A stretch of 20,210 nucleotides of DNA from Acaryochloris sp. IP29b_bin.137 (GCF_028285745.1 NZ_JANQOP010000042.1:1-20210); one strand, 5' to 3'; positions 1-13,482 are shown, numbered from the stretch's first letter. Notes: generated by a model not told the origin, from the sequence alone. Numbers and translations: made by a program.

Positions 1-159
1 TTCATTTAGACGCATCGACTGCTGAAAAACCAACTCTGTGGGATTGAACATAAATTCAATATCTTTACTCTTGTCCGTGGGTTGGTGGACTAAAGTTGCC
101 TTGGCTAACTTGCCTGAGGCAACGGCACTATTATTACTGCGAGAACCACTATAGGTCAT
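1..159 (-). CDS. Partial CDS (N-terminal 53 aa, runs off the left edge): tube-initiator-like protein of a contractile injection system or phage tail (Afp7/Pvc7/Cis7-type N-terminal region)
   Basis: My own reverse-complement translation from ATG at 159..157 gives MTYSGSRSNNSAVASGKLAKATLVHQPTDKSKDIEFMFNPTELVFQQSMRLNE, open to base 1. The L-x-KA-x-[ILV] ... [IV]-x-F-x-FNP-x-E pattern is what I recall for the N-terminal domain of CIS tube-initiator (often LysM-containing) proteins. It starts 29 nt downstream of the giant ORF stop on the same strand. It is absent from the supplied ORF track because it is truncated. The family call rests on memory of a short motif only. Confidence 0.5.
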   Translation of the reverse strand, partial: MTYSGSRSNNSAVASGKLAKATLVHQPTDKSKDIEFMFNPTELVFQQSMRLNE

Positions 160-188
160 GGTTTATTTTCAACCTTTTCGTTAGAACA

Positions 189-3100
189 TCACCAAGGCAA
201 ACGACCGGAATGATACCCTCCATGTCGTTCTCGTTCGACTTCTAAGCGCTGACGCAGGACATGATAGATCTCCCTTGCTAGGATTTCGAAATTTTGCTCG
301 TCTACTTCAGATTCGGTGGGCTGTTCTGTTTGGAACTGGCGCATCACCACTTCGGTGGTTGGAGGAGTGGAAGAGACCGGAGGCGTTGCAGATACCTTTT
401 GCACGGTTTGGGTCCGCTGGATGGGAGCAGGTTTTCGTTGGACTTGCTTCTCAGGATAAATTCCAGTGGGGGTGAGGACTAAATCTGATGTAGTTACAGA
501 CGCTGGAGAGGGCGATTTTGTTTTACGTTGGACGATTTTAGGTGATTGTGGTTGAGCTGTGAATAGATCTTCGATACTAGACCAACTTGAAGGGAGTGCC
601 TGGTCTGAACGACTATTTGAGCGCTGTATTGCGGGCGCGATCGCACCCTCTACACCTACCTCCAAAGTATCCTCAAAACTTGCCACATCTCCAGAAACAG
701 AGACTAGATCTGGTGGAGCATCTAGACTTGGGAAATGGCTGGGTGCCTGGGATTGGCGCTTAGGTTTACTGGTAGGCAAAAGGCTACTCAGGTGCTTAGG
801 AGAAACCAAGTTATCTGAAATGCTGGACAAGGGCGAGGGAGCCTGGCCGTTCGCCAGTAGCTGAGCAACGGTTAGATCTGGGGAGTTTCCTTCAGATAGA
901 TCTGATTCAGGGGGTTTAGCCGCTAACTCAATAACTCGTCGTTGAGGAGAATCTGTAGAATCCGACGAAGTATGTTCTTCTTCTATCTCCTGATGGGCTC
1001 CATCAGGAGTGGCTTCTGCTTGGCGCTGAACTATTGGTTGATTTAGTTCTAATGATTGCGACTTAGTTGAAGTGAGAGGGGGACCAATATGATCTGCTGT
1101 GGAAGCCTGAATATTTGAATCAGCACTTACTTGAGGAACTTCTGCAACCTCGGATTTTTGTGCAGTATCAGGAGATGATTCTGTATGAGTAAGGCCAGGA
1201 CCTGCTTCTGTCAAGGAAGCGTTGTTTTCCAACTTTGGTTGAAGAGGTTGATTCTGGTTTAGGTCGGAGGATGGACTTGACGATAGCTCTGGAGCGGGCG
1301 GGTTAGTCGTTCCACTATTCTCTTCGGGGAGCTGAGCTGAAATTTCTATCACCCGACGATGGGAAGAATCTATCTTGTCCGGTTGAGGCTGGATGCTTTC
1401 TGATACTTGAGGGGATGAATCAGCAATATTTTCAGTTGTAAGTTGTTGTAATTCTGGAGTTTCTGTGTCAGAAATATTCGGATGGGTTGGGGCATTGGAA
1501 TTAACCTGATCCGAATTGTTTGAACTTGAGGTGGATAGGGTCGAATCGGACTTTGTATTGGGCTGATGAGTAGATTGAATGATTCCTGACTCTTCTGAAA
1601 TATCGGTAGGAGCCGCATTAGGGGTGTGAGATTCCTCTACTGTTGAGGATTGAATGACGGGGGCTAATTCAGACAGATCAACGGAAGGTGTGACGGTTGG
1701 TGGAGTTTGCGACGAAATCTGTGGTGCAATTTGCTGTGGTTCGGATGGCTCAGTTGATTGGGAAAGTTGGCTATCTGAGGTGGGTTGTATGGAGAGATTA
1801 TCTTCAGCTTTTGAAGTTGATGCTTGAATGCGATCGCTCTCATCAAACGATTGACCAGAGATCGCTTGCTGAGGCTGTGATTCAGCCTTGGGTTGAACCA
1901 CGGAAATCTCAACAGTTTGAATTGGAACATTAGAAGTTGGCTTAGATGCCAGATTTGATTCTTCTGTGGTTGATTCTGACGGCGCAGAAGGATCTTCTAA
2001 TTCAGGAGTTTCAGAGGCTTTTAGCTGAGTGTTTTCTGGTTCGCTAGTCTCAGTACTCAGCTGAATAATGTCGTTCGTCCCGGCGGTATTTATACTCGCG
2101 CTATCGCTTGTATTTAGGGGCGCAATATTATCTGCAGTGTCTGAGGCAGAATTAGGGCTTTGAGGAGAAGCAATATTCGTATCATCGGCTATAGCAGGCG
2201 ATGAAATCGTTTCAGAAACGTTCTTCTCGGTCAGATCTACTTTGGCTTGAATCGTAGGAGAAGGATGATCTTCCTGAATGTCGAAGTCTTGCCCTCCATC
2301 TGGGAATGTTTTGTTATGAGTACTATCCAGATTGTGGCCAGACGTTTGGGTTAATGAGTCGCTTACATTGTCGAAATTGGGTCTGAAGGTTTGAACTAGG
2401 GATGTTGAGGGATCAACTCCTAAACCACTAACCTCGATCTCAGAAATCTCATTAGCATCATTGAACTTACTCTCACTGGAAAGCTGGTTTTGTTCTGCCC
2501 TAGAGTGCTGGGCAGATGAATGGGGGTTAGGTGTGAGCTGCTGTTGAGGTTGAATCGGGTGAGTTGTTGATGGATATTCAACCTTAGTCTGAATAGAAAT
2601 TTCACCAATGGGCGGACATTCTGGAGATGTTGATGCTGTTGCCGGGACAGTTTGTTCTAGTGAATGTTGAATATCAGAGTCTGGTAGAGAAGGTGTAGAT
2701 TGATCTTGAGTAATGTGCTGTGGGGATAGGCTATCTTGATCGGCGGATGGGTTGGCTAGTGGAGTCTGAGTATCGGATATTCCTAAATCCTCTTGAGGGA
2801 TTTTTTGCGCCTGGACAGGTAGTACAGTTTGAGGATGCGTATTTGAGACGGTGGAACCTGTTGATTGTTTTATTGAATCATCAACGGGCTGTGATGTTTG
2901 TGGATGAGATGTGGCTTGATGTTGGATTGGGTCTCCTTCACTACCCGTACTTGGATTAGCGGCTGCTTGCGCTGATACTTCACCTTGAGAAACGTAATCT
3001 TTCTGAGAAGCAAGTCGCCTCTCATTTGAAGTAGACGGAGAAGGAAGTTCTGCTTTTCTCTGAATATTGGGTTCGTTGGCATAGCTTGAACTCTCTATGT

Positions 3101-6100
3101 CTGGGGGATTAGAGTCGGTTCCTTCAGCAGAGATGGGCTGTGGTTGGATAAATTCTGATGTGTGTGAATTCAGCTCAGCGGAGCTATCAACTAAGGGTGA
3201 AGGAAGATCAGATGCAAGATTTTCTGATTTTGGGGAGTCAACAGTGGCTGATGGTTCGATTCTTGGAGGTTGGTCTGAGACCATCTCATTCTGCACCGGA
3301 CCTGCATCATCCTTTTCACTAATATGCTGACTTTGTACTGCTATATCTCCCGTATTGGGTGATGCTTGTGTCTGAACAGTTGGTGGTTTTGAGATTTCTG
3401 GCTGATCCGTAGATTGAGAGATTTGATCTGGTACAGAATTTGAGGCAGGGGGGATTGAAGGGGTTGACGTCTTCTCGCTGGATAGTTGGGCTGGAGATGT
3501 TGACTTCTGTTTTTTTGTCTTGCGTTTGGACTTCGCCTTTTTAGGGCGCAAATTCGCTAGCTGCTGAACAATGGTTGTTCCTATTTTTGAAATAGGGGAA
3601 TTGAGGGGATTGTTGCGATCGCGACTTTGAGACGATTCAGAGATTACAATACTTTGATGGTCTGGACTCACAGACGTTAATTCAGAGCTATTTTGAGACT
3701 TCTGGATAGAGTTCTTATTTTGCGATCGCAACGTCGCATCACTTTGTTCTGAATCTTGTTGTGGCGTCTTAACCTCTGCTTCATCAATAGAGTTAGTTTG
3801 AATCGGAGGCACTGCGTTTACTTCTGCTAGATTATTATCTTCGTCTAGTGAAGGCGTAACGACAGAGTTTCCACCAGTTTGCTCCAGACTTTCTATTGCA
3901 GAGTTAGATAGAGGAGCGAGTTGTACTGGATCAGTCTCTAAGGTTTGCTCCTTACCTGAGTTCGGCTCAGCAGAAGCCTGAATATTATCTTCATTAGACT
4001 CAGAAACATCTGCAGGTTGTATGGATAGGTTGGTCTCTGCAACACCGAGGGATTGAGTTGGTTCAACCGAACTCGCTTCCTTCGCTGACTTAGGCTTCGA
4101 CAATGGATCTTGTGAAATTTGTCTTCGTATCGACCGATTAACCCTCTCTTTAATTTTTGATCCTAGATTGACGAGTTCATCTGCGACTTGATTCTGAAGT
4201 GCTTGCCACTCAGGTTTAACCACATTGGATTGTGATTCTGATTTCGAAAGAGAGGCTGGTATCTGCTTTTCCTGAGTCGAGGGTTCCCTAGAGCGACTCG
4301 GAGCGGATATTTTCTCAGGTTGAAGAGGCACAGATCCTAAAGGTGGGGATTCTGCTGTCTGCGAAATGGGAAATGATTGAGTTTGGAGATTTTCTTCGGT
4401 TGTTTTCTGAATAGGAAGATTGGCTAGACCCTCTTGGCTCCCTTGAACGCTAGCACTGGGTGAAGACTGTGAACTAAGATCTGCATCCGGTGCTGAAGGT
4501 TGGGCCTGAGTGCCTGGCAGTGCCGAACCTGCTGTGATGTCATTAGAGTTTTTGTTATTACCAGGTGTGGGTTGTTGGGGGTGTTTGCCTTCAGCTATCG
4601 TTCTTTGAGATGGGACAGTTCCACTGGTGTGTTCTGCACTAATCTGCGCTGATGCGCTGGATGGGGTTTGTTGAGGGATAGCACCCTCATCAGGATGAGG
4701 CTCAATCTGGCGACTGACGGTATCCACAACCTGCTTACTGAAGCTGGTCAGCCGTTGCAGGGGTTGTGTTGGGAATTGTCTTCGCTTTTTTGACTTAGCT
4801 CGAGAAGAACTAGCCCCAGGACTAGAAACTATATCACTAGCCTTTTTCTGCTCTGCACTGGACTGCGATGCTGATGATTCAGATTCAATTTGATTTTGTC
4901 TAGTACCCTTGGAATTAGGGATAGGCTCAGACACCTCTGTGATGTCAGAGTTTGAGTCAGGATGTTTGTCTCGCTGAATTGTTGGCTCTGATATCTGCGT
5001 TTGTATTGGCGTAGAGGAAGGATGCTCTTGGGAGGAGTCATCTGATTCAGGGATTGCTTGAACAGTTGAAGCATTCTGTTGATGGTTGACAACCTCAGCT
5101 GCCTTTGGAAGCGTTTTTTCTGGAGAAGCTGTTTGCTCTGAGGCCTGCGTTTCGCTTTGGATTAGAGATAATTCCGGAGATGATTGTTTTGAGTCTGGAG
5201 ATGATGCGGCTGGAAGCGATGGAGTATTGGACGGTTGGAGTTGAGGGGAATTACTCGTGGAGCCTCTTTGCCTTGCCTTAGTTTCTGATTTGCCGATGGG
5301 GAGAGAGTCCGAAGCCTGCTTGAGCTGCTTACCAACCTTGTTAATATCCTGTTTAGCCCGTTCCCCCGCTCGCAAGAGCTGAGTTTGCAAGGGAATCTTT
5401 TTCTGTTTGCTTTTTTTGCTCTGTTTCTTCTGTTTTGTAGCAGATGTTTCAGTTGATGCCTGAGGAGAATGACTGTCTGATCTTTGGAGAATTTTTTCTT
5501 GTATCGCCTCCCTATCTGCCTTAATCGAAGAGCTAAGTGTAGAGGGATTCTCTGTTATTGAGGGTTCATGACTAGAACTAGTTTGTTTAGTCTCTACCGT
5601 TGGTGTAAGTGGGGTATCAGTAGTTGTCTGAGCCGTAGAACTCTCTTTTCTTTGAACACTTGTTGTCTCGATTGGTCTCCCGCTAGTCTGGGTTAGATCG
5701 TTAGGTGTCTTGTAACTCTCCTCCTGTAAAGGTTGATCATCAGGTGATTGTTGAGTGAAGGGTTGGGCAACTCTTTGGACAGTTGTCGGCTCTGTTGATT
5801 TCTCGTTGATTTGGACTGGAGTGCTGGGTGTTGCAGTATTTTCGATTGGTAGGCCATTGCTAACCGGGATGCTTGGATTAGTCTCTACTCTTGGGTTGGC
5901 GTGAGGAGACTGTGAGTTACTCGTTTGCTGATGGTTAGAAGGACTAGGAGATGACTTTACCGTCTGATTAATAGGCAAATCTGTGGTTTTGTCAGTCGAT
6001 CCTTCTGACGGTATAGAGACCCCATCCTCTTTGTTGGCAGCAGGGACATCTTGTGACTTTTGACTCGAAACGGATGGAGACTTTGCAAGTTGTATTTCAG

Positions 6101-7397
6101 AAACTTGCTGTTCCTGGTTTGGAGCAGGCAGAGGCGCTTGGCTCGAAGCTGACAGAAACTGTGCGCCAGAGACTTGCTGTTCCAGGCGATTAGGATTGTG
6201 TTCAGAACGTGGAACTTCTGGGGCTGATACTTCTTTGTTTTGGCCAACCAATTCTTTTGGCTTAGATTGAGCTACAGAAGTATCGTTGAAAGATGAAGCT
6301 TCTGGGTAGCTGGGTTGAAGGTGACCAGAGGTCTCTGAGTCTTTGATTGAAGGTGAATCAGAATGAGTGGGTTTAACAAGAGGCAGGGATTCTTGGTTAG
6401 GAGGCTTTACGTCTGAGTTTCTATGAGTTGCCTGTTCTCGATGATTAGAGGGGCTCTCTTGAATTGTGGGGAGCACAGAATCAGTATTGTCCAGAGGTTT
6501 CGCCTGAAGGGGCGATACTTCTGGTGGATGGGCAAAAGGACTTACTTCCTTAGAGCCTTCGGGGGGAGGATGGGCGATTGATTGTTGCTTAGTTTGGTCT
6601 GATTTTTGTTTGGACTCCTGATTAGGTTGCTCTGAAACCACCGCTGATGCTTGATAGCCTGAAGCATTTTCTGTTGGGGAGGGAACTGAGAAATTTGTAG
6701 ACTCTTGAGACTGAGGTTCAGTAGCTGGAAAGCCAAGTTCAGGAGCTTGGATCTGTTTGGGTTGAAGAGCATCATTAGGACCGCTTTGATCTGGATCAGT
6801 CTGCCTGACTGACTCAGCCTGATCAGAATGGGGGCTGGAAGACTGTGGAGAGATCGGATGCTCAGATGGAGGTTGAGCTGGGGAAGTTACTAGGGATTGG
6901 TCATCATTTAGAGCTGAACTAACCTTACTGGATGGCGACTGTTCTAATTCTGTTGCCGGAGCTGCATTGCTGGGGCTTATATCGGCATTGTTTGCAGTTG
7001 GTGGCTGTTCCTGATGGGCTGAAACTGACTCTGGTGGGGGTTGAAGCCTCTCGACGGATGCTTTTGGCATAAGAGCTTTGGGCTGTGCAGCTTCAGGAAA
7101 CTGGATTCCGACGGATGGAGAAATATGGGTATGACCTGAAAAGCTGTCGTCAATTATTTCCGTTGGCCCTTGAGCAGAGAAACGGTTATAAAGAGTATTT
7201 TCCCTGTCTTTTTCACCTGTTAGAGAAGTATCCAAATTGATTAGAGATACTGCACCTAAGGGAGACAGAGTATGAGGTTGGAGAAATGATTGTCCCAGCG
7301 CAGGGGGAGGTAGCAATGGATGCCTAAGACCAAGCGAGTCTGAGGAAGGAATCTCTTCCGGTAGGGATTGGTGACCTTGGCCTGAATTGATATCCAT
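189..7397 (-). CDS. Giant (2,402 aa) S/P/Q/T/E-rich, predicted intrinsically disordered protein in the tape-measure slot of a CIS/phage-tail-like operon, with a short conserved C-terminal amphipathic RER tail
   Basis: An uninterrupted 7.2-kb ORF cannot plausibly arise by chance. ATG at 7397..7395, TGA at 191..189. It lies between the tube gene (12 nt upstream) and the initiator-like gene (29 nt downstream). By eye it has 1 Cys, about 3 Trp, no signal peptide, no TM segment and no recognisable catalytic motif. It contains 4 HIP1 sites (637, 1830, 3615, 3722). The functional label comes from synteny only. Confidence 0.9.
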   Translation of the reverse strand: MDINSGQGHQSLPEEIPSSDSLGLRHPLLPPPALGQSFLQPHTLSPLGAVSLINLDTSLTGEKDRENTLYNRFSAQGPTEIIDDSFSGHTHISPSVGIQFPEAAQPKALMPKASVERLQPPPESVSAHQEQPPTANNADISPSNAAPATELEQSPSSKVSSALNDDQSLVTSPAQPPSEHPISPQSSSPHSDQAESVRQTDPDQSGPNDALQPKQIQAPELGFPATEPQSQESTNFSVPSPTENASGYQASAVVSEQPNQESKQKSDQTKQQSIAHPPPEGSKEVSPFAHPPEVSPLQAKPLDNTDSVLPTIQESPSNHREQATHRNSDVKPPNQESLPLVKPTHSDSPSIKDSETSGHLQPSYPEASSFNDTSVAQSKPKELVGQNKEVSAPEVPRSEHNPNRLEQQVSGAQFLSASSQAPLPAPNQEQQVSEIQLAKSPSVSSQKSQDVPAANKEDGVSIPSEGSTDKTTDLPINQTVKSSPSPSNHQQTSNSQSPHANPRVETNPSIPVSNGLPIENTATPSTPVQINEKSTEPTTVQRVAQPFTQQSPDDQPLQEESYKTPNDLTQTSGRPIETTSVQRKESSTAQTTTDTPLTPTVETKQTSSSHEPSITENPSTLSSSIKADREAIQEKILQRSDSHSPQASTETSATKQKKQSKKSKQKKIPLQTQLLRAGERAKQDINKVGKQLKQASDSLPIGKSETKARQRGSTSNSPQLQPSNTPSLPAASSPDSKQSSPELSLIQSETQASEQTASPEKTLPKAAEVVNHQQNASTVQAIPESDDSSQEHPSSTPIQTQISEPTIQRDKHPDSNSDITEVSEPIPNSKGTRQNQIESESSASQSSAEQKKASDIVSSPGASSSRAKSKKRRQFPTQPLQRLTSFSKQVVDTVSRQIEPHPDEGAIPQQTPSSASAQISAEHTSGTVPSQRTIAEGKHPQQPTPGNNKNSNDITAGSALPGTQAQPSAPDADLSSQSSPSASVQGSQEGLANLPIQKTTEENLQTQSFPISQTAESPPLGSVPLQPEKISAPSRSREPSTQEKQIPASLSKSESQSNVVKPEWQALQNQVADELVNLGSKIKERVNRSIRRQISQDPLSKPKSAKEASSVEPTQSLGVAETNLSIQPADVSESNEDNIQASAEPNSGKEQTLETDPVQLAPLSNSAIESLEQTGGNSVVTPSLDEDNNLAEVNAVPPIQTNSIDEAEVKTPQQDSEQSDATLRSQNKNSIQKSQNSSELTSVSPDHQSIVISESSQSRDRNNPLNSPISKIGTTIVQQLANLRPKKAKSKRKTKKQKSTSPAQLSSEKTSTPSIPPASNSVPDQISQSTDQPEISKPPTVQTQASPNTGDIAVQSQHISEKDDAGPVQNEMVSDQPPRIEPSATVDSPKSENLASDLPSPLVDSSAELNSHTSEFIQPQPISAEGTDSNPPDIESSSYANEPNIQRKAELPSPSTSNERRLASQKDYVSQGEVSAQAAANPSTGSEGDPIQHQATSHPQTSQPVDDSIKQSTGSTVSNTHPQTVLPVQAQKIPQEDLGISDTQTPLANPSADQDSLSPQHITQDQSTPSLPDSDIQHSLEQTVPATASTSPECPPIGEISIQTKVEYPSTTHPIQPQQQLTPNPHSSAQHSRAEQNQLSSESKFNDANEISEIEVSGLGVDPSTSLVQTFRPNFDNVSDSLTQTSGHNLDSTHNKTFPDGGQDFDIQEDHPSPTIQAKVDLTEKNVSETISSPAIADDTNIASPQSPNSASDTADNIAPLNTSDSASINTAGTNDIIQLSTETSEPENTQLKASETPELEDPSAPSESTTEESNLASKPTSNVPIQTVEISVVQPKAESQPQQAISGQSFDESDRIQASTSKAEDNLSIQPTSDSQLSQSTEPSEPQQIAPQISSQTPPTVTPSVDLSELAPVIQSSTVEESHTPNAAPTDISEESGIIQSTHQPNTKSDSTLSTSSSNNSDQVNSNAPTHPNISDTETPELQQLTTENIADSSPQVSESIQPQPDKIDSSHRRVIEISAQLPEENSGTTNPPAPELSSSPSSDLNQNQPLQPKLENNASLTEAGPGLTHTESSPDTAQKSEVAEVPQVSADSNIQASTADHIGPPLTSTKSQSLELNQPIVQRQAEATPDGAHQEIEEEHTSSDSTDSPQRRVIELAAKPPESDLSEGNSPDLTVAQLLANGQAPSPLSSISDNLVSPKHLSSLLPTSKPKRQSQAPSHFPSLDAPPDLVSVSGDVASFEDTLEVGVEGAIAPAIQRSNSRSDQALPSSWSSIEDLFTAQPQSPKIVQRKTKSPSPASVTTSDLVLTPTGIYPEKQVQRKPAPIQRTQTVQKVSATPPVSSTPPTTEVVMRQFQTEQPTESEVDEQNFEILAREIYHVLRQRLEVERERHGGYHSGRLPW

Positions 7398-7409
7398 AAA
7401 CTTTGCAAG

Positions 7410-7973
7410 TTAGTTACTGGGGTAAAATCCTCCGGCATTCGTATCTCTGCCTTTTAAGAAGGTGGCCCCACCGCCTGCATTACTGCTGGGTTGCAGATTG
7501 GCAACAACTTTTAGACCTTCATAGGCCAGGGTGAGTTCTTCGATCGCAACGGTGGATGCATCCGCTTGGAGGGATGGCGCTTGCCAACCCACGGGAACGG
7601 CACCAATTAAGGTCCAGGTCTGTATCGTTTCTCCCGCTTGATTAAATAGGAGAATGTTGATATTACGACGCTGAGGATTGACATTGCGATCGCTGGGCTC
7701 TAGCTGGGTGAGCATCCGACTGGCCCATCCCCAAAACACCAGATCATTGGTGATCCCCCGTTTGAGGGTGACATCGGAGAATTCGGTTTGGCCGAGGATA
7801 ATCCGCTGTTGGTTGTTAACACCACCTTCAAAGTAGGTGTCATGCTTAATTTTGGCGCTTAACCCTGAACATTCGCTAAAGCAAGCACTGATATAGCTCT
7901 TCTCTTGGATCTCGACATAAAAGCGGTTGGCGGTGACATAGTTGAGGTTATGGGTTTCGCTGTTGCTGGCCAC
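7410..7973 (-). CDS. Phage-tail/CIS inner tube protein (T4 gp19-like, TIGR02241/PF06841 type; Afp1/Afp5/Pvc1/Cis1-like) with a roughly 32-aa Gly/Ser/Asn-rich C-terminal extension
   Basis: The translation shows the family hallmarks: ANRFYVEI..., FSECSGL, YFEGG, FSDVTLKRG, LVFWGW, INILLFNQAGE, TW.L....P..W, VAIEELTLAYEGL. GTG start at 7973..7971 overlaps the upstream stop (TAGTG). TAA stop at 7412..7410. Confidence 0.85.
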   Translation of the reverse strand: MASNSETHNLNYVTANRFYVEIQEKSYISACFSECSGLSAKIKHDTYFEGGVNNQQRIILGQTEFSDVTLKRGITNDLVFWGWASRMLTQLEPSDRNVNPQRRNINILLFNQAGETIQTWTLIGAVPVGWQAPSLQADASTVAIEELTLAYEGLKVVANLQPSSNAGGGATFLKGRDTNAGGFYPSN

Positions 7974-8428
7974 TAATATCGCCCCCCATAGTTCTGCTGC
8001 CGCTCACGCTGATATTGCAAGTCGTTTTGCATCAGTTCATAAATACGATCGCACAATTTCGATTGCGCCAGGGGATCTTGCAAAACTTGAGACGCGAGTT
8101 GCATAACCGCTTGACGCTCTGGAGGACTAACGGATAACTCTAAATAACGATATCCAGCAGGGGGTGGACCGATTCCCCACTGACCTCTCTGTCCTTGATC
8201 CCCTTGGTTCATCTGCCTAAATCCCCATAAGACATTCTGTCCATCCATAGCCAACCCATCAGCAATATTGGGGTCGGGGGACCGCTTATTACTGTATGGC
8301 TCTACCGGAGCTGTCGAAAGTAGACCAAAGTCTAACTTGTCAAGTTGCTCTTCTGTATGCCAGGAATGAACGCATACAAAATTGTAATTTTGGCTTTCCT
8401 GGAGCATAGGAAAACTCAAAGGGGTCAA
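7973..8428 (-). CDS. Hypothetical 151-aa protein, first gene of the tube operon; its C-terminal tail resembles the C-terminus of the giant protein
   Basis: The ORF-track start at 8428 is TTG. An ATG alternative lies at 8407..8405 (MLQESQNY...). Its stop TAG (7975..7973) overlaps the tube GTG by 1 nt, which suggests translational coupling. I recognise no domain. The C-terminus is LCDRIYELMQNDLQYQRERQQNYGGRY. Confidence 0.6.
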   Translation of the reverse strand: MTPLSFPMLQESQNYNFVCVHSWHTEEQLDKLDFGLLSTAPVEPYSNKRSPDPNIADGLAMDGQNVLWGFRQMNQGDQGQRGQWGIGPPPAGYRYLELSVSPPERQAVMQLASQVLQDPLAQSKLCDRIYELMQNDLQYQRERQQNYGGRY

Positions 8429-8938
8429 TCAGTCCTTTTCGCCATCGGCTACCCATGGGTAAATTTTCAGAAATCAAGGTGATTTTGAGGATAAATACCG
8501 CGTATTTAGCAGTTGCCCCCCGAAAAATGGCTTAGCTTAATAATTTTTTACAGAATTAAATTTCGATTACTGAATAATTCTTTAATGAAATCTGAATCCT
8601 TAAATTTTTTCCTTGTAATCCCTTGAAGCTCTTTTTCCGCAAGCATTCTGAGGCGATCGTTTTTTGCTCACCTATGAGACTTAGCCCCATTTAATATTGC
8701 TCGCCGAACCACAATTTTTAAAAAAAACCTGAAATCCAGAGGTTATCAAGGTTTGGTCGATCTATTTTTAGCAAATAGCAATTAAAATATTCCATTAAAA
8801 TATCGTGGCTGCGACATTTCAGCCTGTTAGGTTGTAAAAAGGCTCTAGAAAAATTGCGTAATTTTATAGGGTTTAGTCAAAATCAGCAGACTCGAGTATT
8901 TTTTGCTTACGCTTAATTAAACAAATAGGAGTCAATCA
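8429..8938. promoter_or_regulatory. 510-bp AT-rich divergent intergenic region, presumed to hold promoters for the minus-strand tube operon and plus-strand hup
   Basis: It lies between divergently oriented start codons. It has long A/T tracts (for example aatttttaaaaaaaa near 8714..8731) and a tandem 10-bp direct repeat at 8781..8803. I could not assign -35/-10 pairs confidently. Confidence 0.4.
8927..8931 (+). promoter_or_regulatory. Shine-Dalgarno sequence (AGGAG) for hup
   Basis: AGGAG lies 7 nt upstream of the ATG at 8939. Confidence 0.6.
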
Positions 8939-9220
8939 ATGAATAAAGGAGAACTCGTTGACGCTGTAGCTGATAAGGCAAGTGTCACGAAAAAGCAGGC
9001 GGATGCAGTTCTTTCTGCTGCCTTAGAGGCCATTGTTGAAACCGTCTCTTCTGGGGAAAAAGTCACCTTGGTGGGATTTGGCTCATTTGAACCTCGCGAA
9101 CGTAAAGCCCGTGAGGGTCGCAATCCCAAAACCGGTGCAAAAATGAAGATTCCCGCAACTAAGGTTCCAGCTTTCTCTGCAGGTAAGCTATTCAAGGAAA
9201 AAGTTGCCCCTAAAAAGTAA
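8939..9220 (+). CDS. hup: HU family nucleoid-associated DNA-binding protein
   Basis: 93 aa. MNKGELVDAVA..., GFGSFEPRERKAREGRNPKTG..IPA.KVPAFSAGK is the canonical HU/IHF fold signature. A good RBS is present. Confidence 0.95.
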   Translation: MNKGELVDAVADKASVTKKQADAVLSAALEAIVETVSSGEKVTLVGFGSFEPRERKAREGRNPKTGAKMKIPATKVPAFSAGKLFKEKVAPKK

Positions 9221-9258
9221 TTCTCTTAACCATCTGAATTCTGTATGAGGCGTAACAT

Positions 9259-10362
9259 TTGAATCGCCCTATACATGGGGGCAACCTGGCATGGGCTGCA
9301 GACTTAGCAGGTTGCTCTCCTCACTCCATTCTTGATTTCTCGGCCAGTATTAACCCGCTGGGGCCACCGCAAACTGCGATCTCAGCCGTCCAAGCCCACC
9401 TTGATACCCTAACCACCTATCCTGATCCAAGCTGTAAGGCTATCTGTCAGACATTAAGCCGCATTCATCAACTGCCGATGAATTGGTTTCTGCCTGGCAA
9501 TGGATCTGCAGAGTTACTAACCTGGGCCTGTCGCGACCTTGCCCAGTTGCCTGCAACGGCGATGGTCACGCCAGCGTTTGCCGATTATCGAAGAGCGTTA
9601 AACGCATTTCAAGCTCAAATTCGTTCGTTTTCGCTGGACTTTAAAGCAGGCCAGAACGATTCCCTACCCGGTTTGATGGATCAAGTCTTGACTTCGATTG
9701 GTCAGTCTACTGAAATCTCTGAGTCAGGCCTATTGCTGAATAATCCTCACAATCCAACCGGACAGATCCTATCCCTCAATCAAACAGAGCGCCTACTTAA
9801 CCAATTTGCATGGGTTGTGGTGGATGAAGCCTTTATGGATTTTGTCCCATCTCAGGATCAGTTCAGCCTGATTCCTAAAATACAAGATTTTCCAAATCTC
9901 ATCATCTTGCGCTCTTTGACCAAGTTTTATAGTCTCCCAGGTTTACGCTTGGGCTATGCCGTGGGTCATCCCGACCATCTGCAGCGATGGCAGCAGTGGC
10001 GTGATCCCTGGTCGGTGAATTCTCTGGCTATGGCGGCTGGCGTGGCTGTTTTAGAAGATCATGCTTTTCAAACACAAACGATGCATTGGTTACCCCATGC
10101 CCGCTCTCAGCTTATGACAGGGTTAATAGAGCGGGGATTTCGCCCCTATCAAAGTGCTGCAAATTTTTTATTGGTTGCCACAGATGTTTCAGTGCCGTCC
10201 CTACAAGAAGTCCTGTTAAAACATCATCAGATTCTGATTCGGGATTGCCTGAGTTTCCCGGAGTTGGGAGAGCACTTCTTTCGCGTTGCGGTGCGAACGC
10301 CTGAGGAAAATCAGCGGTTGCTCAATGCTTTGGCGCACTGCATGCCAAGCATATCTGTATAA
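9259..10362 (+). CDS. cobD: Threonine-phosphate decarboxylase (CobD-type class I/II PLP aminotransferase fold; cobalamin biosynthesis)
   Basis: The N-terminal HGGN...ILDFSASINPLGPP, NPHNPTG, and SLTKFYSLPGLRLGY (PLP lysine) are typical of CobD or histidinol-phosphate-aminotransferase-like enzymes. The ORF-track start is TTG, and the upstream ATG at 9245 hits a stop. Confidence 0.75.
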   Translation: MNRPIHGGNLAWAADLAGCSPHSILDFSASINPLGPPQTAISAVQAHLDTLTTYPDPSCKAICQTLSRIHQLPMNWFLPGNGSAELLTWACRDLAQLPATAMVTPAFADYRRALNAFQAQIRSFSLDFKAGQNDSLPGLMDQVLTSIGQSTEISESGLLLNNPHNPTGQILSLNQTERLLNQFAWVVVDEAFMDFVPSQDQFSLIPKIQDFPNLIILRSLTKFYSLPGLRLGYAVGHPDHLQRWQQWRDPWSVNSLAMAAGVAVLEDHAFQTQTMHWLPHARSQLMTGLIERGFRPYQSAANFLLVATDVSVPSLQEVLLKHHQILIRDCLSFPELGEHFFRVAVRTPEENQRLLNALAHCMPSISV

Positions 10363-10394
10363 CATTGATAGAACGGGATCATCTGGAATAAGGT

Positions 10395-11702
10395 ATGGCG
10401 GTTGATTACGATTTAGTGGTGGTGGGAAATAATACCGCGGCCCGTTTTGCTGCGATCGCAGCAAAAGAACGTTCAGCGCGGGTTGCCTTTATTTCCGTCG
10501 CGCCGGAAGTGATTCCCCATCATTTATTTTTGAATCAATGGAGCCAGACCCGACCTCATCAATGTTCCCTAAAAGCATGGGCTGAGGCCAGGACAATGAC
10601 CTGGCAAGCGCCGCATTCTCCTGCTCAGTTGGCTAACTTGGGCATTGAGCAAATTAATGGAGCAGTCCAGTTTCGAAAGGAACCTCAGCTTCAGGTACAT
10701 GTTCAAGATCGGGTGTTGCGATCGCGCCGCTATCTGCTTTGCCTTGATGCCGATCAATGTCCTCCCACTATTCCAGGTGTGCAGACAGAGGATTGGATTT
10801 TCCCCGCCAATATTATTGAATATTTAGACAATCTAGCCCCTTCTCTGTCACACCCTATTCTGGTTGTGGGAGGGGGGCCAATCTCGACCATTCTCTGCCA
10901 AGCCATTGCCCGTCTCGGATATCCAGTTACTTTGCTCTGCGAACATCCCCATATTCTGCCTTGGGAAGATCCAGAGGCTGCCGCTCGGATCCAAGCCCAT
11001 TTGGAGGCAGATGGCGTTCAGATCTTTTCCCGTTGTCAAATTAAAGAAGTAATTCCGAAATCCCAGTCCTTCTATCAAGTCGTGACGAATTATGGTGAAC
11101 TGACCGTAGATAGGTTAGTTTGGGCAGCAGAACCTTTATCATCAGCGATTCATCCCAGCCGGATGGATGTTGAACTTCAGCACCGTTCCCAAGGACTATG
11201 GGTCAACCCTCAACTCCAGACGTCTTCTTCTCAAATTTATGCCTGTGGTTCAGTCTTAGGGGGGTATACCCTTGCTGATATTACTCACCACGAAGCCTTA
11301 GTGGCGGTTAGAAATGTCTTGTCAAAACGGCAGACGACGGTGGATTATCGACTCGTGCCCTGGTCAATTCAAACCGCTCCAGCGCTAGCAAGGGTCGGGT
11401 TGACAGAACAACAAGCCCAACAACAGCAGCTATCCTTTCGAGTAGTATATCCTTCCCTTCTCAATACGCCCACAGGTCGGCTCCAAAATCTGACGGCAGG
11501 CTGGAGTAAGTTGATTGTCCAAGCGGATGGACAGATTCTAGGCGCCCATGTGATTGGTCCGACTGCTGCAGAAATTATTTATGGGGTTACGATCGCGATC
11601 CAACAGCGTTGCCCAATCTCCAAATTAGCGGATGGGGCCGCTTTTAGCTCAAGTTACAGCAGCATAATCGGTCAAGTCGCTTGTCAGTGGTCCAATCGGT
11701 AG
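10395..11702 (+). CDS. Pyridine nucleotide-disulfide oxidoreductase family protein (dihydrolipoamide dehydrogenase/mercuric reductase-like fold), apparently degenerate
   Basis: The two-dinucleotide-fold layout is present: DLVVVGNNTAA at the N-terminus, ILVVGGGPIS in the middle, IYACGSV, and the C-terminal dimerisation-type region VPWSIQTAPALARVGLTE. The canonical CxxxxC near aa 40-50 is not visible, and neither is the C-terminal HP...E dyad. Confidence 0.7.
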   Translation: MAVDYDLVVVGNNTAARFAAIAAKERSARVAFISVAPEVIPHHLFLNQWSQTRPHQCSLKAWAEARTMTWQAPHSPAQLANLGIEQINGAVQFRKEPQLQVHVQDRVLRSRRYLLCLDADQCPPTIPGVQTEDWIFPANIIEYLDNLAPSLSHPILVVGGGPISTILCQAIARLGYPVTLLCEHPHILPWEDPEAAARIQAHLEADGVQIFSRCQIKEVIPKSQSFYQVVTNYGELTVDRLVWAAEPLSSAIHPSRMDVELQHRSQGLWVNPQLQTSSSQIYACGSVLGGYTLADITHHEALVAVRNVLSKRQTTVDYRLVPWSIQTAPALARVGLTEQQAQQQQLSFRVVYPSLLNTPTGRLQNLTAGWSKLIVQADGQILGAHVIGPTAAEIIYGVTIAIQQRCPISKLADGAAFSSSYSSIIGQVACQWSNR

Positions 11703-11716
11703 CCTAACCTTATGGT

Positions 11717-12724
11717 TTAAACCGACTGAGGGGCTTGTCCCATCGTTTCGCGACCGTGGGGAGCCGATAAACGGGTAATATCTGGTCCAGCGGGGATAAT
11801 TCCGCCAGGATTCAAGGGGAATAGGGTGCCATAATAGCTTTGCTTAACGGCGTCTAGATTACAGGTATCTGCCACGCCGGGAAGTTGATACAAATCATGC
11901 AGATAAGCTCCTAAATGGGGGTAGTCTTGAATTCGTCTGCGATTGCACTTAAACAAGCCGTAGTAGGCTACATCAAAACGGAACAGGGTGGGAAACAGGC
12001 GAACATCGGCTAGGGTAAGGGAATCGCCGCAAAGGTAGCGGTGATTGGCCAAGACTTGATCCAGCTCATCCAACACTTGGAAGAGTTCGTTCACCGCTTG
12101 ATCATAGGCGGCTTGGGTTTGAGCAAAGCCACAACGATAGACTCCATTATTGACCGCATGATAGATTTTCTCGTTCCACTGGTCGATCTGGCGACGTAAC
12201 GATTCTGGATAAAGGTCTAGTTCTGGCTGCTGGGCCACAGCATTAAAGGCTGAATTGAGAATCAGAATAATTTCCGAGCTTTCGTTATTGACAATCCTTT
12301 GGGTCTGAGTATCCCAAAGGACTGGAACGGTGCAGCGCCCCTCATAACTGGGTTGGGCAAGGTGATAGAGATCCCTGAGACTGTTGCACCCCTGATGTTG
12401 GGAGACAAAGACCCACCCTCCGTCGGTTGCTGACGGCTGAACGACCACAACATCAATAACGTCTTGGAGACCCTTCAAGGCCCGAACCACTAGGGTTCGA
12501 TGGGCCCAGGGACAACCTAATCCCACGTATAGCCTATATCGCCGATTCTCAGCAGGAAAAGCAGACTCGGGACCTGCAATGGTTTGTCGAAATTGGCTAT
12601 CAGGACGAACATAGGCTCCTTCCTTGCTGCGAGGGGCCATATTCGACATCATTAGATTCCACAGGGTGGTCCAAGCAAATTTTCCCAGTCCAATAATGGC
12701 TTTCGGTGGCAGAGATTTACCCAT
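11717..12724 (-). CDS. Xi-class glutathione S-transferase / glutathionyl-hydroquinone reductase (YqjG/ECM4-like)
   Basis: Supported by the CPWAHR active-site motif (LYVGLGCPWAHRTLV), VRPDSQFRQTI, TVPVLWD, and a C-terminal GST helical domain. Length is 335 aa. Confidence 0.85.
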   Translation of the reverse strand: MGKSLPPKAIIGLGKFAWTTLWNLMMSNMAPRSKEGAYVRPDSQFRQTIAGPESAFPAENRRYRLYVGLGCPWAHRTLVVRALKGLQDVIDVVVVQPSATDGGWVFVSQHQGCNSLRDLYHLAQPSYEGRCTVPVLWDTQTQRIVNNESSEIILILNSAFNAVAQQPELDLYPESLRRQIDQWNEKIYHAVNNGVYRCGFAQTQAAYDQAVNELFQVLDELDQVLANHRYLCGDSLTLADVRLFPTLFRFDVAYYGLFKCNRRRIQDYPHLGAYLHDLYQLPGVADTCNLDAVKQSYYGTLFPLNPGGIIPAGPDITRLSAPHGRETMGQAPQSV

Positions 12725-13063
12725 GGCGATCTCCTTCAGTCACTCAAGGATTACCTTTAGCTTTGATATTAACCGAGGGTATCAATAGCCCTAAGACCTT
12801 CCCCTATCGTCAATACCCCATTGATGACTAGCCTAAAGGTTTCAGCTAGCGGATTGAAGACCAAGGACAAAATAGTAGCTCCCGGAGAACCATTGCATTA
12901 TTGTCCTTTCCAAGACGCAATAAAGGTGAAATGATCTTTAGCTTCGCTTGGTTGGCTAAATTTGTCTACTAGAGTAAGAAGTGCAGTTTGCTTCATCTAT
13001 CGTCTTCAGGATTTCGCTGTTTGAAGCTTTGATGGTTATCCCCTCTCAACCCCGGATAAGAAC

Positions 13064-13441
13064 ATGCGTGGACTTGTTTTAACCCTACTTGCAACAGCTC
13101 TCAGCCTATTAGTGGTCGATTTCGTGTTTGCAGGCGTTGAGATTGCCAACTTTCCTGTTGCGATCGCAGCAGCCATATCGATTGGTATTGTCAATGCCAT
13201 AGTTAAACCGATCCTCACCATTCTCTCGTTTCCCCTAACCTTGTTAACCCTGGGAGGATTCTTATTAGTCCTGAATGGGATCTGTTTTTCTCTGGCATCC
13301 GTATTTGTGCAAGGCTTTCAAGTGCATGGTTTACTAGCATTCTTGTTGGGGCCAATTTTGCTCTCGTTGACCAACGCATTCTTGAATCGGTACTTGATCA
13401 CAGATACGCCTTCTCAAGGGACGGATGGGGAGCGCTCCTAA
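13064..13441 (+). CDS. Small four-TM membrane protein, phage holin family IV / DUF360 (YvlD-like)
   Basis: 125 aa, highly hydrophobic. The NAIVKPILTILSFPLTLLTLGGFLLVLNG pattern matches my memory of PF04020 proteins. Confidence 0.6.
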   Translation: MRGLVLTLLATALSLLVVDFVFAGVEIANFPVAIAAAISIGIVNAIVKPILTILSFPLTLLTLGGFLLVLNGICFSLASVFVQGFQVHGLLAFLLGPILLSLTNAFLNRYLITDTPSQGTDGERS

Positions 13442-13482
13442 TAACGAGGTCTTGCTTGGAACCCTGACTCTGCTGGCCCCTA

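What the first reader, a model, noticed from the sequence alone, without database searches (positions are those of the whole stretch)
1..8428. Tube/ruler module of a contractile-injection-system-like locus abutting housekeeping genes, with no sheath gene where one is expected
Seen in sequence: four co-directional minus-strand genes (151-aa unknown, gp19-type tube, 2,402-aa protein, initiator-like fragment) have junctions of -1 nt, 12 nt and 29 nt, so they form one operon. Immediately upstream lie 510 bp of AT-rich DNA and a divergent hup gene. Established knowledge: in P2/Mu-like myophage tails and Afp/PVC-type eCIS loci the order is sheath, tube, (chaperone), tape measure, tube initiator/hub, spike and baseplate. 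Inference: this is the right-hand boundary of a CIS locus. Its sheath, cap, baseplate and AAA+ genes must lie left of the window or at another locus, which would make this a split or re-ordered architecture. No integrase, tRNA or att-like repeat marks the boundary, and HIP1 sites occur inside the genes. Both points argue for a long-resident element rather than a recent prophage.
Basis: partly seen in the sequence, partly recalled or inferred. Interest (0 to 1): 0.75.

Follow-up and report, generated by a model that had tools for sequence, protein, structure and literature searches.

The report
Detached spike cassette of injection system
This stretch of an Acaryochloris (cyanobacterium) genome carries a six-gene cassette for the inner spike and tube-start of a phage-tail-like injection machine, including a 2,402-residue floppy protein where a plug or length ruler is expected, while the sheath and baseplate genes lie elsewhere or are missing.

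Summary
Window 1-8428 carries a co-directional minus-strand operon with junctions of -1, 12 and 29 nt. A divergent hup gene lies upstream and there is no sheath gene. The source is an Acaryochloris MAG contig.

- **Tube:** a gp19-type protein in the Cis5 (tube-adaptor) position.
- **Fragment at 1-159:** the N-terminus of a Cis7 tube initiator.
- **"151-aa" gene:** really about 79 aa. It belongs to a small helical family found just before Cis5 in 37 related loci.
- **2,402-aa protein:** almost wholly disordered and acidic. Only an N-terminal PLG-rich segment and a C-terminal amphipathic helix are conserved. The helix is paralogous to that of the small protein. Orthologues between Cis5 and Cis7 range from 237 to 2,496 aa and match no curated family.

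In near-identical relatives only VgrG and a PAAR-like DUF4280 follow, then housekeeping genes. The rest of the machine is therefore not left of the window. This is a detached "inner-axis" cassette. In 22 related loci the sheath and Cis1 tubes lie upstream of Cis5, usually by 2-4 kb.

I could not locate a sheath in Acaryochloris. The best reading is a split lineage-II contractile injection system whose giant protein is a lumen-resident plug/ruler-like component. I rate it a new variant of a known kind.

The parts
1..159 (-). First 53 codons of the Cis7-type tube initiator (the gene runs off the window).
   Evidence: Translation. It is 53/53 identical to the start of A. marina's 191-aa protein. 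That protein hits PF19266 CIS_tube at 1.2e-18 and solved tube initiators 8kea_P and 7aeb_M. Orthologues in L002 and L042 carry PF19266.
189..7397 (-). Giant 2,402-aa disordered acidic protein in the Cis6/tape-measure position, between Cis5 and Cis7.
   Evidence: ORF. It has no Pfam, NCBIfam, PHROG or PADLOC hit. Composition is S17 P11 Q10 T8 E8 %, net charge -135, with no TM-like segment. AF2 gives pLDDT below 50 for 1150 of the last 1200 residues, with a clear helix only at the C-terminus. Orthologues of 237-2496 aa occupy the same position in 23 related loci.
7197..7397 (-). Conserved N-terminal segment of the giant protein (residues 1-67; LGLxHPLLPPPxLGQ..LSPLGAVSL).
   Evidence: The four-strain alignment shows a conserved island. 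dN/dS is 0.10-0.18 here against 0.45-0.48 in the middle. PLG-type motifs recur at the N-termini of orthologues.
192..365 (-). Conserved C-terminal segment of the giant protein (residues 2345-2402), including the amphipathic helix EILAREIYHVLRQRLEVERER and the tail SGRLPW.
   Evidence: dN/dS is 0.06-0.12. AF2 predicts a helix at residues 2365-2391. The hydrophobic moment is 0.51. A profile of this motif finds 522 library proteins, nearly always at their extreme C-terminus.
7410..7973 (-). gp19-type tube protein in the Cis5 (tube-adaptor) position, 187 aa.
   Evidence: PF06841 2.2e-36, TIGR02241 6.5e-41, and CIS5_fam 73.6 bits against CIS1_fam 28.5 bits, both below their cut-offs. The PDB best hits (Alg1, Afp5, Alg5, All3324, All3323) score about equally. 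In relatives it always lies directly before the giant gene and Cis7, while 1-3 other gp19 paralogues sit next to the sheath. dN/dS is 0.02.
7973..8212 (-). Its C-terminal helix is paralogous to that of the giant protein, and its stop overlaps the tube start.
   Evidence: Start candidates are. The A. marina frame is only 78 codons, and relatives are called at 77-79 aa. An ORF with the same motif ends at or overlaps the Cis5 start in 37 related loci. AF2 gives pLDDT 77.6 with helices at 30-42 and 47-75. No family or PDB hit.
8213..8938 (.). AT-rich intergenic region between the cassette and divergent hup. It presumably holds the promoter (inferred only).
   Evidence: GC is 0.35 in 8501-9000. There is no Rfam hit and no sigma-70 consensus hit, so promoter function is not shown.
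8939..9220 (+). hup (HU), the right-hand housekeeping boundary of the cassette. It is not part of the CIS.
   Evidence: PF00216 1.8e-33. The same flank of GST, pyridine-nucleotide oxidoreductase and CobD occurs in L002 and A. marina L007; HU itself was called in L002.

Best explanation
Window 1-8428 is the 5' two-thirds of a detached six-gene "inner-axis" cassette of a lineage-II (cyanobacterial/Streptomyces-like) contractile injection system in Acaryochloris. The gene order is: small helix protein, Cis5-type tube adaptor, giant disordered protein, Cis7 tube initiator, VgrG spike, DUF4280 PAAR-like tip.

The identities of the tube, Cis7, VgrG and tip genes, and the housekeeping flanks on both sides, are shown.

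The mechanism is inferred:
1. The VgrG trimer with its tip nucleates assembly.
2. The C-terminal amphipathic helices of the giant protein and/or its small paralogue form the helical plug in the tube-facing cavity of the spike, as Cis6/Pvc6/Alg6 do.
3. Cis7 and Cis5 rings stack on top.
4. The roughly 2,300-residue acidic disordered chain lies in the tube lumen as the tube and sheath polymerise. There it acts as a tape-measure-like length determinant or lumen filler, and it is expelled on contraction.

Sheath, Cis1 tube, cap, AAA+ ATPase and wedge genes must be supplied from another locus. In relatives these genes lie just upstream or in a divergent operon.
For: **Gene identities.**

**Cassette content and both flanks in near-identical relatives.** L002 (tube 98% identical), A. 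marina L007 (95%) and L042 (98%).

**Canonical layout in relatives.** The usual order is cap(-)/AAA(-) | sheath, 1-3 Cis1 tubes, small ORF, Cis5, giant, Cis7, VgrG, DUF4280. Twenty-two related loci carry a sheath gene upstream of Cis5 within the fetched DNA.

**Other half-loci exist.**
- L012 and L015 (Spirulina-like) have housekeeping genes next to the same cassette.
- A Pseudanabaena plasmid carries cap, sheath and three tubes with no spike within the 20 kb shown.

**The giant protein.**
- The termini are conserved (dN/dS 0.06-0.18).
- The middle is fast-evolving (0.45-0.48; 37-48% identity between strains whose tubes are 95-98% identical).
- Length stays at 2402-2454 aa across the four strains.
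- It is predicted disordered except for the C-terminal helix.

**The small protein.** A disordered N-terminus is followed by a long C-terminal helix. This matches the published architecture of Alg6/Pvc6 (PMC8894135, PMC12546770). Both helices are amphipathic.

**Co-occurrence of the pair.** In nearly every locus exactly two ORFs carry the motif. Gloeothece lacks both.

**Literature.** Afp6 and Afp14 homologues are reported absent or highly divergent in lineage II (PMC6899500, PMC10066040, PMC11566945). That leaves these roles unassigned.
Against: - Neither the giant nor the small protein shows sequence or profile similarity to solved Cis6/Pvc6/Alg6 chains or to any tape-measure family.
- Known tape measures, including Alg14, are alpha-helical. 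This protein is S/P/Q/T-rich and disordered.
- Orthologue length differs two-fold (1166 against about 2140 aa) between relatives whose tubes are 95% identical. That is awkward for a strict ruler.
- At the published 0.22 nm per residue the particle would be about 0.5 micrometres long.
- The enriched [ILV]-Q-[RK] motif, shared with DUF4157 effector N-termini, points towards a cargo-like role.
- No sheath, baseplate or ATPase locus was found for Acaryochloris, so function as part of a contractile machine is not shown.
- No structural or expression data exist.
Confidence: 0.6

Rival explanations
1. The giant protein is mainly an ejected cargo or effector scaffold, like the tape-measure-related effector Tme of Streptomyces davawensis, rather than a length ruler. 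Its many [ILV]-Q-R motifs would be loading or lumen-binding signals of the kind that also head the DUF4157 effectors. This reading is compatible with the cassette identification and partly with the best explanation.
For: - The motif occurs 14 times against 2.7 expected (z 6.8) in the window protein.
- In orthologues it reaches z 31 and 50 copies. It is absent from the two shortest orthologues.
- eCIS_core/DUF4157 proteins of related loci start with the same motif within about 10-15 residues.
- Tme is over 2,000 aa, about 70% disordered, the largest ORF of its cluster, and lies immediately upstream of the baseplate genes (PMC11126660).
- N-terminal loading sequences and an AAA+ loader are known for eCIS cargo (bioRxiv 10.64898/2026.05.27.728243).
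Against: - No DUF4157 domain, no transmembrane segment and no enzymatic C-terminal domain were found.
- The conserved parts are the two termini. The C-terminus is a plug-like helix shared with a structural-looking small protein.
- The gene lies inside the structural operon between Cis5 and Cis7 in every lineage.
Confidence: 0.3
2. The cassette is an auxiliary, exchangeable "warhead" module, analogous to orphan hcp-vgrG-PAAR islands of type VI secretion. It would serve a complete CIS cluster encoded elsewhere that has its own Cis5/Cis7/VgrG set, rather than being the complementary half of a split single locus.
For: - The cassette is self-contained (tube adaptor to spike tip) and flanked by housekeeping genes on both sides.
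- Another Acaryochloris (CRU_2_0) carries a different CIS cluster with its own Cis1, Cis5, 2268-aa giant, Cis7, VgrG, DUF4280 and cap.
Against: - It is not known whether any genome holds both the cassette and a complete cluster.
- No second Acaryochloris Cis5 or VgrG of this lineage was visible among the best 120 hits, except that of CRU_2_0. Clustering at 90% identity could hide one.
- No effector gene is attached to the cassette.
Confidence: 0.25
3. The cassette is what remains of a CIS locus after the sheath and baseplate were lost. It is either a decaying remnant or a sheath-less complex with a new, non-contractile role.
For: - No sheath, gp25, baseplate-J, cap or ATPase gene lies within about 10 kb on either side in Acaryochloris relatives.
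- No A. marina plasmid carries a sheath of this lineage.
Against: - Purifying selection is strong on the tube (dN/dS 0.02) and on both termini of the giant protein.
- ORFs of 7.2-7.4 kb are intact in four strains separated by dS of about 0.7-1.0.
- The chromosome of A. marina could not be searched, so absence of a sheath is untested.
Confidence: 0.08
4. The genes are the tail-tube and tape-measure part of a P2/Mu-like prophage or tailocin.
For: The order tube, long protein, hub, spike resembles myophage tail modules. The tube hits PHROG 4542, a tail tube family.
Against: - No capsid, integrase, tRNA or att-like boundary was found.
- Housekeeping genes lie on both sides.
- HIP1 density matches the host.
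- Relatives carry Pvc16_N cap, AAA+ ATPase and eCIS_core effectors typical of CIS.
- An IMG/VR scan found no close viral relatives of the lineage's sheath.
Confidence: 0.02

Closest known systems
Lineage-II eCIS/CIS clusters of cyanobacteria and Streptomyces (dbeCIS; CIS-Sc; related to but distinct from the Anabaena tCIS)
   Same: - gp19-type tubes, PF19266 Cis7, VgrG and a PAAR-like tip.
- In relatives, a Pvc16_N cap, AAA+ ATPase, sheath, gp25, baseplate J and eCIS_core effectors.
- The lineage's sheath is about 41% identical to Streptomyces CIS sheaths.
   Different: In Acaryochloris only the six inner-axis genes are together, and the rest is not adjacent. The lineage also has a giant disordered protein and a small paralogue that published descriptions do not annotate.
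Cis6 / Afp6 / Pvc6 / Alg6 spike plug
   Same: - The giant gene sits where cis6 sits in Anabaena (all3324 = Cis1, all3323 = Cis5).
- Both new proteins end in an amphipathic helix of about 27-29 residues.
- The small protein has the plug's size and its N-disordered, C-helix layout (PMC8894135, PMC12546770).
   Different: - No detectable sequence similarity to solved plugs.
- The small gene lies upstream of cis5, not between cis5 and cis7.
- The protein in the cis6 position is 40-50 times larger than any known plug.
Tape measure proteins (Afp14, Alg14, phage gpH/gp29/gpT)
   Same: - It is by far the largest ORF of the window's operon and lies directly upstream of the tube-initiator and hub genes.
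- The C-terminus is conserved.
- The middle is free to vary in sequence while keeping its length within a genus.
   Different: - It is not alpha-helical and is predicted disordered.
- It matches no tape-measure profile.
- Length varies ten-fold across relatives and two-fold between close ones.
- At 0.22 nm per residue (bioRxiv 10.64898/2026.05.27.728243) it would imply a particle of about 0.5 micrometres.
Tme (BN159_7576) of Streptomyces davawensis and Sle1-type effectors
   Same: It is over 2,000 aa, mostly disordered, and lies just upstream of the hub and baseplate genes. It would be lumen-resident and ejected (PMC11126660, PMC13277306).
   Different: It has no DUF4157 domain, transmembrane helices, coiled coil or nuclease domain. 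Sle1 is encoded upstream of the sheath and is alpha-helical.
Orphan hcp-vgrG-PAAR islands of type VI secretion systems (own knowledge)
   Same: A self-contained spike and tube-start module sits away from the sheath and baseplate genes.
   Different: It belongs to a different CIS class. No attached effector or immunity genes were seen. It is not shown to supplement a complete main cluster.

Membership tests
Contractile injection system (Afp/PVC-like superfamily, lineage II) | gp19-type inner tube protein (PF06841) | tested here: met
   PF06841 2.2e-36 and TIGR02241 6.5e-41. PDB hits to Alg1, Afp5, Alg5, Cis1 and Cis5.
Contractile injection system (Afp/PVC-like superfamily, lineage II) | Tube initiator (Cis7/Afp7, PF19266) | tested here: met
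   The window fragment is 53/53 identical to the A. marina protein. That protein hits PF19266 at 1.2e-18 and solved tube initiators. No LysM domain was detected by Pfam in the 191-aa protein.
Contractile injection system (Afp/PVC-like superfamily, lineage II) | VgrG-like spike and PAAR-like tip | tested here: met
   These lie outside the window. VgrG is present directly downstream of Cis7 in L002, L007 and L042 (PF05954, PF04717), and DUF4280 (PF14107) follows it in L002 and L042.
Contractile injection system (Afp/PVC-like superfamily, lineage II) | Contractile sheath (PF04984/PF17482) encoded with the tube | tested here: not met
   There is none in the window (several right-hand ORFs not scanned). 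There is none in the 6-10 kb fetched upstream of the tube (L002, L007) or the roughly 6 kb fetched downstream of DUF4280 (L042). There is none on A. marina plasmids at lineage-level identity. The chromosome could not be searched.
Contractile injection system (Afp/PVC-like superfamily, lineage II) | Baseplate wedge genes (gp25, baseplate J/Afp11, P2_I), cap (Pvc16_N) and AAA+ ATPase | tested here: not met
   They are absent from both flanks in Acaryochloris. They are present next to the orthologous cassette in other cyanobacteria. Whole-genome presence was not testable.
Cis5/Afp5 tube adaptor (as opposed to the Cis1 main tube) | Sequence closer to Cis5 than to Cis1, and a gene directly preceding the hub genes | tested here: inconclusive
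   NCBIfam CIS5_fam scores 73.6 bits against 28.5 for CIS1_fam, both far below their cut-offs. PDB scores for Cis1-type and Cis5-type chains are about equal. Position is consistently Cis5-like in more than 20 loci.
Cis6/Afp6 spike plug | Small protein (about 50-60 aa) with a C-terminal amphipathic helix, homologous to Afp6/Pvc6/Alg6, forming a trimer in the spike cavity | tested here: inconclusive
   Size and helix are met for the 79-aa protein. The helix is met for the giant protein. Homology is not detected. Location in the spike cavity is not testable with these tools.
Tape measure protein (Afp14/Cis14, phage TMP) | Long, mostly alpha-helical protein with TMP-profile similarity, whose length sets tail length | tested here: not met
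   There is no TMP profile hit. The protein is predicted disordered, not helical. Only gene position and size fit. The relation between protein length and tail length is not testable here.
DUF4157/eCIS_core effectors and Tme-type tape-measure-related effectors | eCIS_core (PF13699) domain, and for Tme also transmembrane helices and a C-terminal enzymatic domain | tested here: not met
   There is no PF13699 hit. The maximum 19-residue hydropathy is 0.82. There is no folded C-terminal domain. Only the short [ILV]-Q-[RK] motif is shared with effector N-termini.
Prophage / tailocin | Integrase, att/tRNA boundary, head or lysis genes, and atypical composition | tested here: not met
   No tRNA. No integrase among the ORFs scanned. 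HIP1 density is the same inside and outside the cassette.

The most novel reading that the evidence does not exclude
The giant disordered protein and its small paralogue are the "missing" plug and tape-measure pair of lineage-II contractile injection systems. A three-helix plug is built from their shared C-terminal helix. A 0.2-2.4-thousand-residue acidic, disordered, multivalent array of phi-Q-R motifs fills and measures the tube, using the same short signal that loads DUF4157 effectors. In Acaryochloris this inner-axis set has become a free-standing cassette, encoded apart from the sheath and baseplate genes.
Probability: 0.3. Interest if true: 0.75.

Novelty: new variant of a known kind. 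Interest (0 to 1): 0.6.

Why it matters
How lineage-II contractile injection systems set their length and plug their spike is an open question. Surveys and structural papers report Afp6 and Afp14 homologues as absent or too divergent to recognise (PMC6899500, PMC10066040, PMC11566945).

This locus points to a concrete, widespread and unannotated candidate pair. The profile search found 522 hits, and every named member I checked was a cyanobacterial "hypothetical protein".

- **A testable handle.** Natural length variants from 237 to about 2,500 aa (3,170 aa in the wider library) allow protein length to be compared with particle length.
- **A new kind of ruler.** If a disordered chain can act as a ruler or lumen scaffold, the alpha-helical tape-measure paradigm would widen. 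That would bear on engineering cargo capacity.
- **Annotation practice.** The detached cassette shows that CIS genes can be split into inner-axis and sheath/baseplate halves. Locus-based detectors that require co-located genes would miss or mis-score such systems.

Tried and rejected
1. **Extending the contig.** The exact 2,402-aa protein is on record only on a 7.3-kb Logan contig. The MAG contig is just 707 nt longer than the window.
2. **First genome scan.** A scan with the giant protein's C-terminus found nothing.
3. **Finding the Acaryochloris sheath.**
   - tblastn of a lineage sheath against PLSDB gave no Acaryochloris plasmid in the 60-80% identity band, although pREB1 is in the collection.
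   - An IMG/VR scan with a ten-sheath alignment gave no hit above 52% identity and none traceable to Acaryochloris.
   - Supplements of two CIS papers do not list Acaryochloris, and a literature search found nothing.
   - The chromosome of A. marina could not be searched with the caps left.
4. **Linking the giant and small proteins to known families.** Pfam, NCBIfam, PHROGs and PADLOC were all negative. PDB sequence and profile searches returned only chance hits. Foldseek on the small-protein model gave nothing.
5. **Separating Cis5 from Cis1 by PDB sequence scores.** This was not possible.
6. **Other features.** There are no tandem DNA repeats in the giant gene, no Rfam hit and no consensus promoter in the intergenic region.
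7. **MSA for the small protein.** An alignment from the library hits failed, because most short hits are fragments of giant-type proteins.
8. **Length constraint.** I considered claiming that indels are balanced so as to hold the length constant. I rejected that as unproven, because low-complexity alignments are unreliable and the net differences are within what a random walk could give.

Full report
**1. Observation check**

The small ORF's TAG stop shares its G with the tube's GTG start. The tube-giant gap is 12 nt and the giant-Cis7 gap is 29 nt.

Upstream lie 510 bp to the maximal ORF, with GC 0.35 in the 8501-9000 window. Beyond that is a divergent HU gene (PF00216). There is no tRNA. No integrase appears among the window ORFs I scanned; several right-hand ORFs were not scanned.

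HIP1 occurs 12 times against 0.26 expected. Five sites lie inside the CIS genes, the same density as in the flanks.

One correction concerns the 151-aa ORF, which is over-extended. A. marina's frame is only 78 codons from stop to stop, and relatives are called at 77-79 aa. ATG 8212 (79 aa) is the likely start.

**2. Source and relatives**

Exact look-ups place the window on a 20,917-nt contig of the MAG Acaryochloris sp. IP29b_bin.137. The left edge is therefore a contig end, not a biological boundary.

Three near-identical relatives show the full context:
- L002, tube 98% identical.
- A. marina MBIC11017 chromosome, L007, tube 95% identical.
- L042, tube 98% identical.

L002 and L007 keep the flank GST, oxidoreductase and CobD on one side; HU itself was called in L002, and a 33-codon fragment in the HU position in L042. 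The cassette order is then small ORF, tube, a 2,411-2,454-aa giant, Cis7 (PF19266) and VgrG. DUF4280 follows VgrG in L002 and L042; L007 ends just after VgrG.

In L042 the next genes are Band_7, two unknowns, a pentapeptide protein, QueG and PNPase. So the cassette has six genes and is flanked by housekeeping genes on both sides. The sheath, cap, wedge and ATPase genes are not to the left of the window.

**3. Gene identities**

*Tube.*
- It hits PF06841 at 2e-36 and TIGR02241 at 6.5e-41.
- It scores higher on NCBIfam CIS5 than on CIS1 (73.6 against 28.5 bits), both below their cut-offs.
- PDB scores do not separate Cis1-type from Cis5-type chains.
- In more than 20 related loci this orthologue always directly precedes the giant gene and Cis7. 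One to three other gp19 paralogues sit beside the sheath. I therefore call it Cis5-type by position.

*Fragment at 1-159.* The 53-aa fragment equals the start of A. marina's Cis7. That protein matches PF19266 and solved tube initiators.

**4. Comparative architecture**

A genome scan with the tube gave 35 cyanobacterial loci. I annotated them by BLAST with Pfam-labelled references.

The common layout is: cap(-) and AAA+(-), sometimes preceded by gp25(-) and baseplate J(-) | sheath, Cis1 tubes, an unknown gene, small ORF, Cis5, giant, Cis7, VgrG, DUF4280. In some loci gp25, baseplate J and P2_I follow.

- Twenty-two loci have the sheath upstream of Cis5 within the fetched DNA, usually by 2-4 kb.
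- About ten have none there. These are mostly the clade closest to Acaryochloris, and many of them carry a PBP_like_2 gene upstream.

Other half-loci exist:
- L012 has housekeeping genes and a caspase-domain protein directly upstream of the cassette.
- L015 and L022 have housekeeping genes after DUF4280.
- A Pseudanabaena plasmid carries cap, sheath and three tubes with no spike or baseplate within the 20 kb shown.

The expectation of a sheath here is justified by the relatives.

**5. The giant protein**

*Composition and structure.*
- It has no hit in Pfam, NCBIfam, PHROGs or PADLOC.
- Composition is S17 P11 Q10 T8 E8 %, with net charge -135 and no membrane-like segment.
- AF2 (single sequence) gives pLDDT below 50 for 1150 of the last 1200 residues.
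- The one clear helix is at residues 2365-2391, and a short one lies in a conserved island.

*Orthologues.* They occupy the same position in 23 other loci and range from 237 to 2,496 aa. They share two features:
- an N-terminal segment with PLG-type motifs;
- a C-terminal motif, LExLAxEIYxLLRQRLxxERERxG.

*Evolution within Acaryochloris.*
- The tube has dN/dS 0.02.
- The giant's termini have dN/dS 0.06-0.18 and its middle 0.45-0.48.
- Overall identity is only 37-48%, yet length stays at 2,402-2,454 aa. Alignments of low-complexity sequence are uncertain.
- A few internal islands are conserved, three of them basic.

*Between closer relatives elsewhere.* Length can differ two-fold, 1,166 against about 2,140 aa at 95% tube identity.

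*Wider distribution.* A profile of the C-terminal motif finds 522 proteins among 1.84 billion representatives. The motif is nearly always at the extreme C-terminus, in proteins of 53-3,170 aa. The named ones I checked are all cyanobacterial hypothetical proteins.

**6. The small protein**

The same profile, searched against every stop-to-stop ORF of all loci, hits two ORFs per locus in nearly every case. One is the giant's C-terminus. The other is a small ORF that ends at, or overlaps, the Cis5 start. This holds in 37 loci plus the window.

- Gloeothece PCC 7424 lacks both.
- Ancylothrix has a 272-aa "giant" and no small ORF.
- AF2 predicts a disordered N-terminus, a short helix and a 29-residue C-terminal helix (pLDDT 77.6).
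- Both helices are amphipathic, with hydrophobic moments of 0.46-0.51.

This is the layout published for the plug proteins Alg6 and Pvc6. Those have an N-terminal strand or disordered part and a C-terminal helix that trimerises in the spike cavity (PMC8894135, PMC12546770). No sequence, profile or fold match to solved plugs was obtained.

**7. A recurring short motif**

- [ILV]-Q-[RK] occurs 14 times in the window protein against 2.7 expected by shuffling (z 6.8).
- It is enriched in almost all long orthologues, up to 50 copies and z 31. It is absent from the two shortest.
- The eCIS_core/DUF4157 effector-type proteins of related loci begin with the same motif within about 10-15 residues. Several giants of other clades do so too.

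This suggests a shared loading or lumen-binding signal, but nothing here tests that.

**8. Mechanism (inferred)**

The cassette encodes the whole central axis: tip, spike, tube initiator, tube adaptor and two helix-bearing proteins. My reading is as follows.
1. The shared C-terminal helix forms the plug in the VgrG cavity.
2. The giant's disordered chain lies in the lumen while Cis1 and the sheath, encoded elsewhere, polymerise.
3. The chain acts as a ruler or filler and is expelled on firing.

A rough calculation bears on this.
- One chain occupies about 310 nm^3.
- A 4.5-nm-wide lumen (the PVC value, PMC12546770) offers about 16 nm^3 per nm of length.
- Three chains therefore need at least about 60 nm of tube at full packing, and more realistically over 120 nm.
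- The published eCIS coefficient of about 0.22 nm per residue would give about 0.5 micrometres (bioRxiv 10.64898/2026.05.27.728243).

The cargo/scaffold reading, the auxiliary-cassette reading and the relic reading remain open.

**9. Comparison with known systems and novelty**

The system belongs with lineage-II CIS. Its lineage's sheath is about 41% identical to Streptomyces CIS sheaths.

The literature reports Afp6 and Afp14 homologues as absent or highly divergent in lineage II (PMC6899500). It also reports them missing from Streptomyces and haloarchaeal clusters (PMC10066040, PMC11566945).

Tme of S. davawensis is the nearest published analogue in size, disorder and position. It has DUF4157, transmembrane and nuclease parts that are absent here (PMC11126660).

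I rate the finding a new variant of a known kind. It is a known machine with an unannotated, apparently cyanobacterial pair of axis proteins, carried in a detached cassette.

**10. Limits**

I could not search the A. marina chromosome for a sheath, so the split is shown only for the flanks. All functional statements about the giant and small proteins are inference from position, conservation pattern and predicted structure.

Noticed in passing
window 189-7397 (-); related loci L006, L016-L043: The short motif [ILV]-Q-[RK] (84% R) is strongly enriched along the giant proteins: 14 copies against 2.7 expected in the window protein, and up to 50 copies (z 31) in L028. The same motif heads the eCIS_core/DUF4157 effector-type proteins of related loci (MQKQQIQKK, MQTRSSLQRR and others).
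   Followed up: partly
window 5271-5432, 4674-4775, 3504-3593 (-) (giant residues 656-709, 875-908, 1269-1298): Three conserved islands, rich in basic residues and partly helical, interrupt the otherwise acidic and fast-evolving chain in all four Acaryochloris strains. AF2 gives a short helix in the third island.
   Followed up: partly
L012 8291-9577 (+): A caspase-domain (Peptidase_C14) protein lies directly upstream of the detached small-ORF/Cis5 cassette in a Spirulina-like MAG. This may be coincidence, but CIS of cyanobacteria and Streptomyces have been linked to cell death.
   Followed up: no
L003 7116-9620, and the homologous genes in L008, L009, L011, L014, L031, L033, L035: A protein of about 830 aa with a C-terminal PBP_like_2 domain sits immediately upstream of Cis5 in the clade closest to Acaryochloris. 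It is a lineage-specific CIS-associated gene of unknown role and is absent from the Acaryochloris cassette.
   Followed up: no
L046 (Pseudanabaena sp. ABRG5-3 plasmid ABRG53d) 17637-23927: This is a half-locus of the opposite kind: cap (DUF4255), response regulator, sheath and three tube genes. No spike or baseplate lies within the 20 kb shown, on a plasmid that also carries nif and psbA genes. Further on lie an AAA ATPase, a "phage tail assembly protein", a DUF6760 protein and DUF4157 proteins.
   Followed up: no
L004/L005 (Gloeothece citriformis PCC 7424) 9510-13819: Here Cis5 is followed directly by Cis7, with no giant and no small ORF. DUF4280 precedes Cis5 and no VgrG is nearby. The giant and small genes are absent together.
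   Followed up: partly
L043 (Acaryochloris sp. CRU_2_0) 1-13324: A second CIS lineage occurs within the genus (VgrG 62% identical). It carries Cis1, a 51-aa small ORF with the helix motif, Cis5, an extra 132-aa gene, a 2,268-aa giant, Cis7, VgrG, DUF4280 and a Pvc16_N cap.
   Followed up: partly
L017 10508-13345, L019 8043-8900, and many library hits: Some giant-type proteins carry the C-terminal helix motif twice, as two matched stretches near the C-terminus.
   Followed up: no
window 1-7500: GC skew is strongly positive (up to 0.39) and AT skew negative on the + strand across the giant gene. A C- and A-rich coding strand encoding P, S, T and Q codons would explain this, rather than replication.
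   Followed up: no
window 14745-15356 (-); L006 8591-9205 and 18970-19566; L046 28301-28876: Uma2-family endonuclease genes recur in or near these cyanobacterial CIS neighbourhoods, including 6 kb to the right of the cassette in the window.
   Followed up: no
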